A DNA stretch of 28,003 nucleotides. Source: a virus. Its lineage: Duplodnaviria; Heunggongvirae; Uroviricota; Caudoviricetes. Made by a program: the position numbers and the translations under genes. Location of the stretch: the IMG/VR virus record IMGVR_UViG_2859827302_000010. One strand, 5' to 3'. Below the pieces are notes generated by a model. The model was given only the letters and a program-made list of their open reading frames with translations. It did no database searches and was not told the origin of the DNA. Of the stretch, positions 20,226 through 21,848 are shown piece by piece. Numbering within the stretch: the first letter of the stretch is position 1; each line of letters begins with the position of its first letter.

Positions 20226-20427
20226 CGCTTCAATGGGAAATTGTTGTCGCCATTGTTCGATTAACGCGTATTTTTCAGCGACTCCTGTGCAAAATACGTA
20301 AGGCAGTATGACTTTCCGTGAGACAGATGCTGGCCAACGTGGGATATTTAACGCGGGTTAACATCGTTGTCAGAGCCGCATGGGTGAGCTGTTGCTACAC
20401 CCCGGTATTTCCACCACGGAGGCCAGC

Positions 20428-21555
20428 ATGAACAACAATAACACATTGTACGTCGGGTTAGATGTTCACAAAGAATCGATTACTGTCGCTTATGCTATCA
20501 ATTCAGAACCTGTTGAACTGATGGGTAAAATTGGCACATCACCTACTGATATTCAGAATCTTTGTAAACGTCTCAGGTCAAAGTCATCGCAGGTCAGTAT
20601 CGTTTATGAAGCGGGGCCCTGTGGTTATGGACTTTATCGTCGGCTGGTGAAATCCGGTTTTGACTGCATGGTCTGCGCCCCCTCACTTATCCCGAAAAAA
20701 CCGGGGGAGCGGGTTAAAACCGATCGCCGTGATGCCATCAGACTTGTGCGTTCACTGCGTGCAGGAGATCTTTCTGCTGTCTACGTACCCGGCATTGAAG
20801 ATGAGGCATTCCGGGATTTGGCCCGGGCATGGGCATCTGCCCGCGATGATTTACGGCATGCAAGGCAACGTCTGAAATCGTTTCTTCTGGTTCATGGGGT
20901 CCATTATGTCGGGCGAGCAGATTGGGGCCCTGCACACCGACGCTGGCTCAGCAAATACTCATTCGAAAGTCCCTGGCGACAATTAGCTTTTGACGAACAC
21001 CGTCGTACAATAGAAGACCGGCAGGCACAATGTGAACGGCTGGAATCCGCCCTGAAGGAGGCCGTTACCGAATGGAGGCTGTATCCGGTAGTAGAGGCGC
21101 TGCAAGCCATGCGAGGGATTCAGTTTATTACTGCGGTTGGATTAATTTCTGAACTGGGTGATCTGACCCGTTTTGAACATCCACGACAACTGATGTCATG
21201 GTTTGGTATCACGCCATCAGAATATTCATCGGGTGGAAGCAGACATCAGGGCAGCATTACCAAAGCCGGAAACAGCTATGCCAGAAAGCTATTGGTCGAG
21301 GCAGCGTGGAGTTACCGTCATCCGGCACGCATCAGTCCGGCAATACAAAAAAGGCAGGAAAATTTACCCCGCCCCGTCATTGACAGAGCATGGGATGCTC
21401 AACTCAGGCTCTGTAAGAGGTATCGAAAACTTCAGGCCAAAGGAAAGAATGTCAATATTACAATTGTTGCTGTTGCACGTGAGCTGGCGGGTTTTATCTG
21501 GGATATGGGCCGAATAGCAATGTCTGTCGCACAACAACCACAATGTCACAAATAA
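20428..21555 (+). CDS. IS110-family transposase (DEDD RuvC-like N-domain plus C-terminal Ser-containing Tnp domain)
   Basis: 376-aa ORF from MNNNNTLYVGLDVHKESITVAYA… (DEDD-type N-terminus) with a C-terminal …GITPSEYSSGGSRHQGSITKAGNSYARKLL motif; SD GGAGG upstream. The ORF-track entry starts 16 codons earlier. Confidence 0.85.
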   Translation: MNNNNTLYVGLDVHKESITVAYAINSEPVELMGKIGTSPTDIQNLCKRLRSKSSQVSIVYEAGPCGYGLYRRLVKSGFDCMVCAPSLIPKKPGERVKTDRRDAIRLVRSLRAGDLSAVYVPGIEDEAFRDLARAWASARDDLRHARQRLKSFLLVHGVHYVGRADWGPAHRRWLSKYSFESPWRQLAFDEHRRTIEDRQAQCERLESALKEAVTEWRLYPVVEALQAMRGIQFITAVGLISELGDLTRFEHPRQLMSWFGITPSEYSSGGSRHQGSITKAGNSYARKLLVEAAWSYRHPARISPAIQKRQENLPRPVIDRAWDAQLRLCKRYRKLQAKGKNVNITIVAVARELAGFIWDMGRIAMSVAQQPQCHK

Positions 21556-21820
21556 AAAATGAGAATAACCAGTTCCCTGAAGGCGACGTAGCCCGGTACA
21601 AGAGTAACCCACGTTAGCGCTTGGCGACGGCGGAACAAAGCTGATTCGCGACGTAAGAAAGTGGCAGGCTCATATGACGGACCTCTGTAATGCGGTATCC
21701 AACCCGCGAATATCAGCGTGATTCACCGTCGGATTTACTGCTACGTCGCCCTCAGGGAATTAAACCTAAAAAGAAAATCGTCAAAATTAGAGATTCCGGT
21801 TTGACACGGAAAGTCATATC
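21556..21820 (+). ncRNA. Candidate structured non-coding RNA (bridge/guide-type) in the 3' region of the IS110-family element
   Basis: 265-bp non-coding stretch between the transposase stop and the element end, with a long-range 18-bp stem (CCCTGAAGGCGACGTAGC at about 21581-21598 pairing with GCTACGTCGCCCTCAGGG at about 21733-21750, one mismatch) and internal GCGACG repeats. Hypothesis only. Confidence 0.25.
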
Positions 21821-21848
21821 AGGCGTCAACGGAGCACCGTATTGACGC

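What the first reader, a model, noticed from the sequence alone, without database searches (positions are those of the whole stretch)
20304..21823. IS110-family element with a long structured 3' non-coding region: candidate bridge/guide RNA
The element encodes a DEDD-type IS110-family recombinase (20428-21555) with only about 120 bp upstream but about 265 bp downstream of the gene. That downstream region holds a long-range 18-bp stem (about 21581-21598 with 21733-21750) and repeated GCGACG motifs, and the element carries subterminal 13-bp inverted repeats (ATGACTTTCCGTG). IS110/IS1111 elements are established to encode a structured non-coding RNA in their non-coding end that specifies target and donor recognition (3'-located in the IS1111 subgroup). 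The element sits in the terminal repeat of another IS, matching the IS1111-group habit of targeting repeats of other mobile elements. If an ncRNA is encoded here, its guide loops should be complementary to the IS66 terminal repeat target.
Basis: partly seen in the sequence, partly recalled or inferred. Interest (0 to 1): 0.7.

Follow-up and report, generated by a model that had tools for sequence, protein, structure and literature searches.

The report
Known ISSso6 element's bridge RNA
This is a copy of the catalogued mobile element ISSso6, whose tail encodes a folded guide ("bridge"/"seeker") RNA that reads the tip of another mobile element (IS66) as its landing site; it is real, but it belongs to a kind of system described in 2024.

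Summary
The element is ISSso6, an IS110-family, IS1111-group insertion sequence, at 20303-21822. It sits 5 bp inside the terminal inverted repeat of an IS66-family element. Its 3' non-coding end encodes a ~194-nt structured RNA (21570-21763, + strand). A 22-bp closing stem and two arms are supported by compensatory changes in relatives that were not used to build my model. Two variable segments of arm A track each relative's own insertion site. CGUUAGCGCU (21612-21621) is complementary to the top strand right of the insertion point. ACGUAAG (21651-57) is identical to the top strand left of it. Permutation tests gave 0 of 20000 for both. Two invariant segments, AUAUCAG and UACUGCU, match the element's own ends. 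This is the IS1111-type bridge/seekRNA layout. A published table (Durrant et al. 2024, Suppl. Table 5) already lists ISSso6 as IS1111-group with a bridge RNA detected in its right end, so the finding is already known in kind. New here are the explicit guide map, the IS66-end target GTAAG|CGYYAACG, a conserved circle-junction promoter, and two unexplained junction oddities. RNA expression and function were not tested.

The parts
20290..20297 (.). 8-bp target-site duplication (CAAAATAC) of the host IS66-family element; the second copy is at 24325-24332
   Evidence: sequence read
20298..20302 (+). Outermost 5 bp (GTAAG) of the IS66-family terminal inverted repeat = left target (LT) plus the AG 'core' (20301-02)
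   Evidence: uninterrupted IS66 ends GTAAGCGTCAACGG in L001-L004 and in the same IS66 variant
20303..21822 (+). ISSso6 (IS110 family, IS1111 group), 1520 bp: GCAGT-sTIR ... sTIR-ATCAG
   Evidence: RefSeq annotation of 99-100% identical copies; boundaries from empty sites and from other copies L085-L088
20304..20309 (+). CAGTAT, candidate -10 hexamer of the promoter formed only in the circular form
   Evidence: lies 17 nt after TTGACA once the ends are joined; same geometry in all relatives, with CATAAT in the marine group; inference
20308..20320 (+). Left subterminal inverted repeat ATGACTTTCCGTG
20428..21555 (+). DEDD transposase/recombinase gene, 375 aa, with G--P----SG motif (GITPSEYSSG)
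   Evidence: Pfam PF01548 + PF02371; translation
21570..21763 (+). Bridge RNA / seekRNA gene (structured core, about 194 nt)
   Evidence: CM R1 scores 201.8 bits on + and 32.6 on -; z = -5.3; covariation in unseen relatives
21570..21592 (+). P1 closing stem, 5' strand (pairs with 21740-21762)
   Evidence: 22 of 22 pairs show compensatory changes
21612..21621 (+). Right target guide (RTG) CGUUAGCGCU, on the 5' side of the arm-A internal loop. It pairs with top strand AG+CGTCAACG (8 Watson-Crick + 1 G.T + 1 mismatch) and 10/10 with AGCGCTAACG at the nhaA site
21651..21657 (+). Left target guide (LTG) ACGUAAG, on the 3' side of the same loop; identical to top strand ..CGTAAG, so it pairs with the bottom strand
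21710..21716 (+). Left donor guide-like segment AUAUCAG = top strand of the right end plus core (ATATC+AG)
   Evidence: invariant in 17 close relatives; AUACCAG where the end is ATACC
21736..21742 (+). Right donor guide-like segment UACUGCU, complementary to (G)GCAGTA of the left end; it lies in the multiloop and runs into the P1 3' strand
   Evidence: weak taken alone
21740..21762 (+). P1 closing stem, 3' strand
21801..21806 (+). TTGACA, perfect -35 hexamer abutting the right sTIR; conserved in all relatives
21805..21817 (+). Right subterminal inverted repeat CACGGAAAGTCAT
21823..21823 (+). Extra G between the core AG and the rest of the IS66 repeat; absent from empty sites and from most other copies
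21824..21851 (+). Remainder of the IS66-family terminal inverted repeat (CGTCAACGGAGCACCGTATTGACGC..) = right target (RT)
21849..23441 (-). IS66-family transposase gene tnpC of the host element (the element spans 20298-24324)
   Evidence: Pfam DDE_Tnp_IS66 and related domains

Best explanation
The region is a complete copy of ISSso6, an RNA-guided insertion sequence. Its DEDD recombinase gene (20428-21555) is followed by a ~194-nt non-coding RNA gene (21570-21763, same strand).

The RNA folds into a 22-bp closing stem (P1) that carries two arms. Arm A is the target-binding arm. [quoted passage not shown] The two pairings overlap at an AG dinucleotide where strand exchange takes place. The specified site is GTAAG|CG(T/C)(C/T)AACG, i.e. 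the first 14 bp of IS66-family terminal repeats, and insertion occurs 5 bp from the tip.

Arm B and the multiloop carry AUAUCAG and UACUGCU. These match the element's own right and left tips as they abut in an excised circle (..GTCATATC-AG-GCAGTATGAC..). In the circle, TTGACA (right end) and CAGTAT (left end) come to lie 17 nt apart, which would make a promoter for the recombinase gene and, by read-through, for the RNA.

Shown here: the anatomy, the structure covariation, the guide/flank covariation, and the insertion site. Inferred from the IS621, ISEc11 and other published systems: that the RNA is made, is bound by the recombinase, and directs recombination.
For: Identity: 99-100% identical copies are annotated 'IS110-like element ISSso6 family transposase', and the Pfam domains match. 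Durrant et al. 2024 Suppl. Table 5 lists ISSso6 as group IS1111 with bridge RNA end RE.

Structure: the RNAalifold consensus of 16 relatives has 51 pairs. A CM built from it finds a single + strand hit 3' of the recombinase gene in relatives down to 48% protein identity, at 15.8-103 bits. On 20 hits not used to build the model, 88.2% of cells are paired against 63.1% in shuffles and 30-40% when partners are slid. 43 of 51 pairs have compensatory changes and the covariation score is 0.635 against 0.189, with 0 of 500 shuffles as high. P1 keeps 22 pairs with wholly different sequences. G-U pairs in P1 and the 202 vs 33 bit strand asymmetry fix the strand.

Target guides: across 32 elements the segment aligned to 21614-21619 is the reverse complement of the 6 nt right of the core in 4.6 of 6 positions, against 2.3 of 6 for mismatched element/flank pairs (0 of 20000 permutations). 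The segment aligned to 21651-55 equals the 5 nt left of the core in 2.9 of 5 positions against 1.7 of 5 (0 of 20000). Examples: L006 CACAGCU with AGCTGTG; L025 ACCCGCU with AGCGGGT; L017 AUGGUAUU with AATACCAT. Among close relatives (85-95% protein identity) the RNA is almost invariant except for 4 nt of this guide, and all of them sit at GTAAG|CGT.. ends.

In E. coli, ISSso6 sits at GTAAG|CGTCAACGG, GTAAG|CGTTAACGG and GTAAG|CGCTAACGG. The last is a 10/10 match to the guide, reached by 1 of 2000 shuffles.

Donor: AUAUCAG and UACUGCU are invariant where the ends are invariant. AUACCAG accompanies ends that read ATACC.

Promoter geometry TTGAC(A/G)-17 nt-CA(G/T/C)(T/A)AT is conserved across the family.
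Against: There are no expression data, and Rfam 15 has no family for it. No promoter or terminator consensus flanks the RNA in the linear form.

Taken on this one sequence, the guide matches are only modestly unusual. The RTG against the canonical IS66 end was reached by 48 of 2000 shuffles, the LTG by 189, the LDG by 134 and the RDG by 637.

The RDG-like segment leaves one base (N after the core) unpaired in relatives with N = T or A, and it does not clearly covary in the marine group. The 3-bp helix that would bury the CAG of AUAUCAG has no support (59% paired).

The single-sequence MFE fold differs from the comparative fold inside P1.

In this copy an extra G (21823) puts the right flank out of register with the guide, so this particular copy may not excise.

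The covariation counts were made on model-fitted alignments, and the sequences are related to one another.
Confidence: 0.88

Rival explanations
1. The RNA is a target-seeker only. Arm A guides target choice, but the element's own ends are recognised by the recombinase binding the 13-bp subterminal inverted repeats, and the AUAUCAG / UACUGCU matches are incidental or purely structural.
For: The RDG-like match is not unusual on its own (637 of 2000 shuffles) and the LDG match only weakly so (134 of 2000). The base after the core is unpaired in many relatives, and the RDG does not obviously covary in the marine group. The subterminal repeats covary as a repeat pair across the family. Siddiquee et al. 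2024 note that end recognition may differ between IS1111- and IS110-type elements.
Against: Both segments are invariant exactly where the ends are invariant. AUAUCAG changes to AUACCAG in lineages whose right tip is ATACC. Both include the AG found at the left junction. Durrant et al. report donor-binding nucleotides in a multiloop in many IS1111-group RNAs, which is where UACUGCU lies.
Confidence: 0.2
2. The 3' non-coding region is an ordinary RNA or DNA structure with no guide role: an mRNA 3' stabiliser or terminator, or a set of protein-binding repeats (GCGACG).
For: It has a long GC-rich stem at the 3' end of an mRNA and repeated GCGACG motifs. No independent promoter was found.
Against: No U-tract follows P1 and the terminator scan found nothing there. 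The loop segments covary with each element's insertion-site flanks, which a stabiliser or protein site would not do. The GCGACG copies are simply strands of P1 and of the arm-A distal stem, and they change in relatives while the pairing is kept.
Confidence: 0.03
3. The element is a dead relic in this window. The RNA gene is intact but this copy can no longer move, and its spread in this lineage reflects movement or recombination of the surrounding IS66/IS600 cluster.
For: An extra G at 21823 separates the core from the right target; the exact AGG junction is in only one E. coli record in the collection. Right-junction variants AG, GG and AGG occur among E. coli copies. Degraded copies are common (L086, L089).
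Against: The recombinase ORF is intact (375 aa), as are both repeats, the RNA and the -35/-10 elements. Independent insertions at four different GTAAG|CG.. sites show recent activity of the lineage. This rival concerns the activity of this copy, not what the feature is.
Confidence: 0.35

Closest known systems
IS1111-group bridge RNAs predicted by Durrant et al. 2024 (PMC11208160; e.g. ISCARN28, ISAzs32, ISPa11; Suppl. Table 5 lists ISSso6 itself)
   Same: DEDD recombinase, long right end, subterminal inverted repeats, and an RNA encoded 3' of the gene. An internal loop is complementary to the target, and donor-binding nucleotides lie in a multiloop.
   Different: Only the end in which an RNA was detected was published for ISSso6. 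I could not run their covariance models.
seekRNA of IS1111-family elements ISEc11, ISKpn4, ISPa11, ISPst6 (Siddiquee et al. 2024, PMC11187229)
   Same: [quoted passage not shown] The segments overlap in the target, and the top-strand-pairing segment lies 5' of the bottom-strand-pairing one. Joining the ends creates a promoter in the circle.
   Different: The ISSso6 recombinase is 375 aa, against 330-350 aa for their IS1111 family. It shares only a 69-aa local match with IS1111 itself. ISSso6 appears only in their sequence and identity tables, with no target or RNA described. Their seekRNAs are shown experimentally; this one is not.
IS621 bridge RNA (IS110 group; Durrant et al. 2024, Hiraizumi et al. 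2024)
   Same: Two-part logic: a target loop and a donor part, each reading both strands around a shared dinucleotide core.
   Different: The IS621 RNA is in the left end, upstream of the gene. In its target loop the bottom-strand guide comes first, whereas here the order is reversed. The core is CT there and AG here. Here the dinucleotide at the right junction can differ from that at the left (AA or GG against AG).
[quoted passage not shown]
   Same: An IS110/IS1111-type element that specialises on a conserved sequence of another mobile element (paper title cited).
   Different: The host sequence here is the tip of IS66-family elements (GTAAG|CGYYAACG), with insertion 5 bp from the end.

Membership tests
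IS110 family (DEDD transposases) | N-terminal DEDD/RuvC-like domain (Pfam PF01548) | tested here: met
   E 2.4e-11, residues 9-153
IS110 family (DEDD transposases) | C-terminal Transposase_20 domain (PF02371) with the G--P----SG motif | tested here: met
   E 8.1e-24; GITPSEYSSG in the translation; motif definition
IS110 family (DEDD transposases) | Site-specific insertion without classical terminal inverted repeats or a multi-bp target duplication | tested here: met
   Five E. coli/window sites all read GTAAG|CG..; only the AG dinucleotide is repeated at the two junctions
IS1111 group | Subterminal inverted repeats of 7-17 bp with short terminal extensions | tested here: met
   13-14 bp repeats at 20308-20320 / 21805-21817, with 5-nt extensions GCAGT and ATCAG; definition
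IS1111 group | The longer non-coding region lies downstream of the transposase gene | tested here: met
   267 nt downstream against 125 nt upstream; same in all relatives
IS1111 group | Transposase related over its full length to that of IS1111, 330-350 aa (criterion of Siddiquee et al.) | tested here: inconclusive
   BLASTP gives IS1111C at 33% over only 69 aa, IS4321 at 30% over 96 aa, and IS1533 (listed as IS1111 group) at 31% over 333 aa; length is 375 aa. The reference sequences were taken from a trimmed alignment. Durrant et al.'s tree files ISSso6 under IS1111
Bridge RNA / seekRNA | A conserved structured RNA encoded in the long non-coding end, on the transposase strand | tested here: met
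Bridge RNA / seekRNA | Two loop segments that pair with opposite strands of the target, overlap at the crossover dinucleotide, and covary with the target across relatives | tested here: met
Bridge RNA / seekRNA | Segments that pair with the element's own joined ends (donor) | tested here: inconclusive
   AUAUCAG and UACUGCU match the ends and are invariant with them. There is partial covariation (AUACCAG with ATACC). The matches are weak alone, and one base is unpaired
Bridge RNA / seekRNA | Order of the target segments typical of IS1111 (top-strand-pairing segment 5' of bottom-strand-pairing segment) | tested here: met
   RTG 21612-21 precedes LTG 21651-57; rule stated
Bridge RNA / seekRNA | The RNA is expressed, co-purifies with the recombinase and is required for circle formation and insertion | not testable with these tools
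   Needs RNA-seq/Northern, RNP purification and transposition assays
Bridge RNA / seekRNA | Match to the published IS1111-group covariance models | not testable with these tools
   The models are not in Rfam 15 (no hit); the published table reports a detection in the RE of ISSso6

The most novel reading that the evidence does not exclude
In the ISSso6/IS1533-like clade the crossover may not follow the IS621 rule of identical donor and target cores. In about 40 relatives the left junction always carries AG, the dinucleotide written in the donor guide AUAUCAG and in the LTG. The dinucleotide at the right junction instead follows the 3' end of the target guide (CU with AG, UU with AA, CC with GG). 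An unpaired base also follows the core on the donor side. This would fit strand exchange 5' of the core on the strand that is inherited (for example one-strand exchange resolved by replication), with core mismatches tolerated through G.U/G.T wobble. That would be a mechanistic variant of bridge recombination. The right-junction variants seen in E. coli (AG, GG, AGG) could be scars of that process.
Probability: 0.2. Interest if true: 0.5.

Novelty: already known. Interest (0 to 1): 0.25.

Why it matters
It confirms that a first-pass reading of raw sequence can recognise an RNA-guided insertion sequence and correctly predict where its guide RNA lies. For ISSso6, which is common in Shigella and enteroinvasive E. 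coli plasmids, it supplies a concrete guide map and target (GTAAG|CGYYAACG, the tips of IS66-family elements). That explains why this element is found nested in IS66 copies. It also gives a natural series of re-targeted guides (E. coli, Salmonella, Serratia, metagenomic relatives) that could be used to test programmability. It does not reveal a new kind of system.

Tried and rejected
- Rfam 15 at gathering and at E<=10 found no family in the element.
- The single-sequence MFE fold gets P1 right, but its inner pairings use window-specific GCGACG repeats and disagree with the comparative structure (against 48).
- The 3-bp helix CUG 21685-87 / CAG 21714-16 from RNAalifold is rejected: 59% paired and no covariation.
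- The sigma-70 and terminator scan of the linear element found nothing near the RNA.
- Hypothesis that the host IS66 variant naturally ends GTAAGGCG, which would explain the extra G: rejected. The same variant uninterrupted reads GTAAGCG.
- Hypothesis that the base after the core at the left junction comes from the target: rejected. It is G at five different ISSso6 sites and does not match the first base of the right flank in relatives.
- A 3-nt overlap model to explain the extra G: rejected. It predicts ATCAGGGTC, not the observed ATCAGGCGTC.
- A possible antisense relation between the left end (AACGTGGG / AACGCGGGTTAAC) and the RNA (GUAACCCACGUU) sits at inconsistent positions in distant relatives, so I did not pursue it.
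- The minus-strand CM hits reflect only the palindromic P1 (24.6-37 bits against 194-223 bits for the + strand hits at the same loci).
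Full report
**What is there.** The ORF at 20428-21555 encodes a 375-aa protein with the two Pfam domains of IS110-family DEDD transposases. Copies 99-100% identical occur in 41 of 5426 complete E. coli genomes, and in Shigella boydii and S. 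dysenteriae plasmids. They are annotated 'IS110-like element ISSso6 family transposase'. The element is therefore a catalogued insertion sequence.

Uninterrupted IS66-family ends read GTAAGCGTCAACGG (L001-L004), as does the very IS66 variant of this window in strains that also carry ISSso6. In the window that repeat is split as GTAAG(20298-20302) | GCAGT-ATGACTTTCCGTG ... CACGGAAAGTCAT-ATCAG | G | CGTCAACGG(21824-).

- ISSso6 occupies 20303-21822 (1520 bp).
- It has 13-14-bp subterminal inverted repeats and 5-nt terminal extensions.
- AG is present at both junctions.
- The host IS66-family element spans 20298-24324, with an 8-bp duplication CAAAATAC, and itself interrupts an IS600 copy.

The element ends are off by one base. 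The quoted 'target' strings contain element bases. The long stem is placed about 10 nt too far inward.

**The RNA.** The region 21556-21822 folds far better than shuffles (z = -4.7; for 21570-21763, z = -5.3). I fetched 80 loci encoding relatives of the recombinase (47-81% identity) from one genome per species. Wherever both ends are on the contig, the architecture is the same:

- a subterminal repeat starting (T)ATGAC about 95-125 nt before the start codon;
- its partner 220-360 nt after the stop codon in copies with an intact gene;
- a total length of 1.5-1.6 kb.

The 3' ends of 16 Burkholderiales relatives and the window align over about 193 nt at 87% mean column identity. They give a consensus of 51 pairs: a 22-bp closing stem P1 (window 21570-21592 with 21740-21762) and two arms.

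A covariance model of this alignment (R1) finds one + strand hit, always just 3' of the recombinase gene. This holds in loci it had never seen, down to marine gammaproteobacterial elements with 48% protein identity. On 20 such unseen hits:

| Measure | Observed | Control |
|---|---|---|
| Cells forming a standard pair | 88.2% | 63.1% shuffled; 30-40% with partners slid |
| Pairs with compensatory changes | 43 of 51 | 29.5 shuffled mean |
| Covariation score | 0.635 | 0.189 (0 of 500 shuffles as high) |

P1 keeps 22 pairs with entirely different sequences. One predicted 3-bp helix is not supported. The alignments are model-fitted and the sequences are related, so these numbers overstate independence, but the slid control speaks against an artefact.

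**The guides.** Inside the otherwise conserved RNA, two short segments of arm A vary, and they vary with the flanks.

- The 5' side of the internal loop (window CGUUAGCGCU, 21612-21621) is the reverse complement of the AG dinucleotide plus the bases to the right of the insertion point. Examples: L006 CACAGCU with AGCTGTG, L025 ACCCGCU with AGCGGGT, L030 UCCAGCU with AGCTGGA, L017 AUGGUAUU with AATACCAT.
- The 3' side (window ACGUAAG, 21651-57) equals the bases to the left of the insertion point plus AG.

Over 32 and 29 elements respectively, own-flank agreement was 4.6 of 6 and 2.9 of 5 positions. For mismatched element/flank pairs it was 2.3 of 6 and 1.7 of 5. None of 20000 permutations reached the observed totals.

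For ISSso6 itself, the right guide pairs with the IS66 end AGCGTCAACG through 8 Watson-Crick pairs, one G.T pair and one mismatch. It pairs perfectly (10/10; 1 of 2000 shuffles) with AGCGCTAACG, which is the site of a chromosomal copy next to nhaA. Other copies sit at GTAAG|CGTTAACGG and, in Salmonella, at GTAAG|CGTTAACC.

In relatives with 85-95% protein identity the RNA is nearly invariant except for four bases of this guide. The Serratia version is CGUUGACGCU, a perfect match to the canonical IS66 end. A metagenomic version is CGGCUACGCU, found at GTAAG|CGTA(C/A).. ends beside IS66 tnpA/tnpB genes. The whole sub-lineage therefore specialises on IS66-family tips.

Two further segments, AUAUCAG (21710-16) and UACUGCU (21736-42), match the right tip plus AG and the complement of the left tip. 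That is the sequence the ends would form in a circle (..GTCATATC-AG-GCAGTATGAC..). They are invariant where the tips are invariant, and AUAUCAG becomes AUACCAG in lineages whose tip is ATACC. Taken alone they are weak evidence, so I rate the donor-reading part lower than the target-reading part.

**How it most likely works.** By analogy with the tested systems, the RNA is bound by the recombinase, and arm A pairs with both strands of GTAAG|CGYYAACG around the AG. The analogous systems are IS621 (bridge RNA) and ISEc11, ISKpn4 and ISPa11 (seekRNA). The second part of the RNA holds the joined element ends, and strands are exchanged at AG.

The order of the target segments (top-strand reader first) is the one reported for IS1111-type seekRNAs and is the reverse of IS621. 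The UACUGCU segment lies in the multiloop, as Durrant et al. describe for many IS1111-group RNAs.

In the circle, TTGACA (21801-06) lies 17 nt from CAGTAT (20304-09). This geometry is kept in every relative, and the marine group has a near-consensus CATAAT. That fits the junction promoter shown for ISEc11.

Neither expression, nor binding, nor requirement for the RNA could be tested here.

**Comparison with what is known.** Durrant et al. 2024 list ISSso6 in Supplementary Table 5 with 'Detected Bridge RNA End: RE' and 'IS110 Group: IS1111'. Siddiquee et al. 2024 include its transposase in their sequence set but do not discuss it.

By protein sequence ISSso6 is far from IS1111 proper. The match to IS1111C is a local 69-aa stretch. 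The best of the sequences I compared is IS1533, at 31% over 333 aa. The protein is also longer than the 330-350 aa quoted for the IS1111 family. It meets the structural criteria of the group (subterminal repeats, downstream non-coding region, RNA layout), but the full-length-similarity criterion is inconclusive.

The finding is thus already known in kind, and even listed for this element.

**Unexplained points.**

1. This copy has an extra G (21823) between the AG and the right half of the target. Other E. coli copies read ATCAG|CGTC or ATCGG|CGTC, and the AGG form is in only one E. coli record of the collection. It puts the flank out of register with the guide and may immobilise this copy.
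2. In all relatives the left junction carries AG, while the right-junction dinucleotide follows the 3' end of the target guide (AG, AA or GG). An unpaired base also follows the core on the donor side. This differs from the identical-core rule of IS621, and only wobble pairing reconciles it. It may indicate a variant crossover mechanism, but empty sites for those relatives are lacking.

**Verdict.** This is a real, well-supported bridge/seekRNA gene in a catalogued IS1111-group element inserted in an IS66 terminal repeat. Novelty is low and interest is modest.

Noticed in passing
window 19407-24560: Three nested insertion sequences. An IS600 (IS3 family) copy is split by an IS66-family element (20298-24324, with 8-bp duplication CAAAATAC at 20290-97 and 24325-32). 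That element in turn carries ISSso6 5 bp inside its tnpC-proximal inverted repeat, which probably disables that IS66 end.
   Followed up: partly
window 21823: An extra G lies between the AG crossover dinucleotide and the right half of the IS66 repeat. It is absent from empty sites and from most other ISSso6 copies. E. coli copies show AG, GG and AGG at this junction.
   Followed up: partly
L086 (E. coli CFSAN029787 plasmid), about 3074-3300: There is a tandem duplicate of the last ~205 bp of the ISSso6 right end. One right end is joined to ISSso6's own guide-coding DNA (..GTTAG|CGCTTGGCGACGG..). This looks like the footprint of an ISSso6 insertion into another copy's RTG region, which mimics the target because AGCGCT is palindromic. 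The transposase gene there is also interrupted by IS600.
   Followed up: no
L089 (E. coli YJ3 chromosome) 1123-1551; similar 54-55-nt matches in many E. coli chromosomes: A widespread ISSso6 relic keeps part of the transposase gene and the last ~90 nt of the right end, but has lost almost the whole bridge-RNA region (equivalent to about 21541-21735). It abuts the other type of IS66 repeat (AG|CGTAAAG).
   Followed up: partly
L005-L084 junctions: Across the family the left junction is always ..AG-N-CA(G/T)(T/A)-ATGAC. The dinucleotide at the right junction instead covaries with the last two bases of the target guide (CU with AG, UU with AA, CC with GG). Donor-type and target-type 'cores' can therefore differ.
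   Followed up: partly
window 20303-20427: The left end (the 5' UTR of the transposase mRNA) folds moderately well (z = -2.4). GCUGGCC (20329-35) pairs with GGCCAGC (20421-27) right next to the Shine-Dalgarno GGAGG. It also contains AACGTGGG / AACGCGGGTTAAC, which is complementary to GUAACCCACGUU of the bridge RNA.
   Followed up: partly
L031 (Paraburkholderia humisilvae): A relative whose RNA lacks the whole target-binding segment (RTG, distal hairpin and LTG are deleted) while keeping P1 and arm B. Its transposase gene is also truncated, so it is a decaying copy.
   Followed up: no
window 16287-16594 and 25322-25512: Rfam hits outside the finding: four tRNA genes in a row on the minus strand, and a C4 antisense RNA plus isrK on the minus strand. 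This is the kind of pair found in phage or satellite immunity regions.
   Followed up: no
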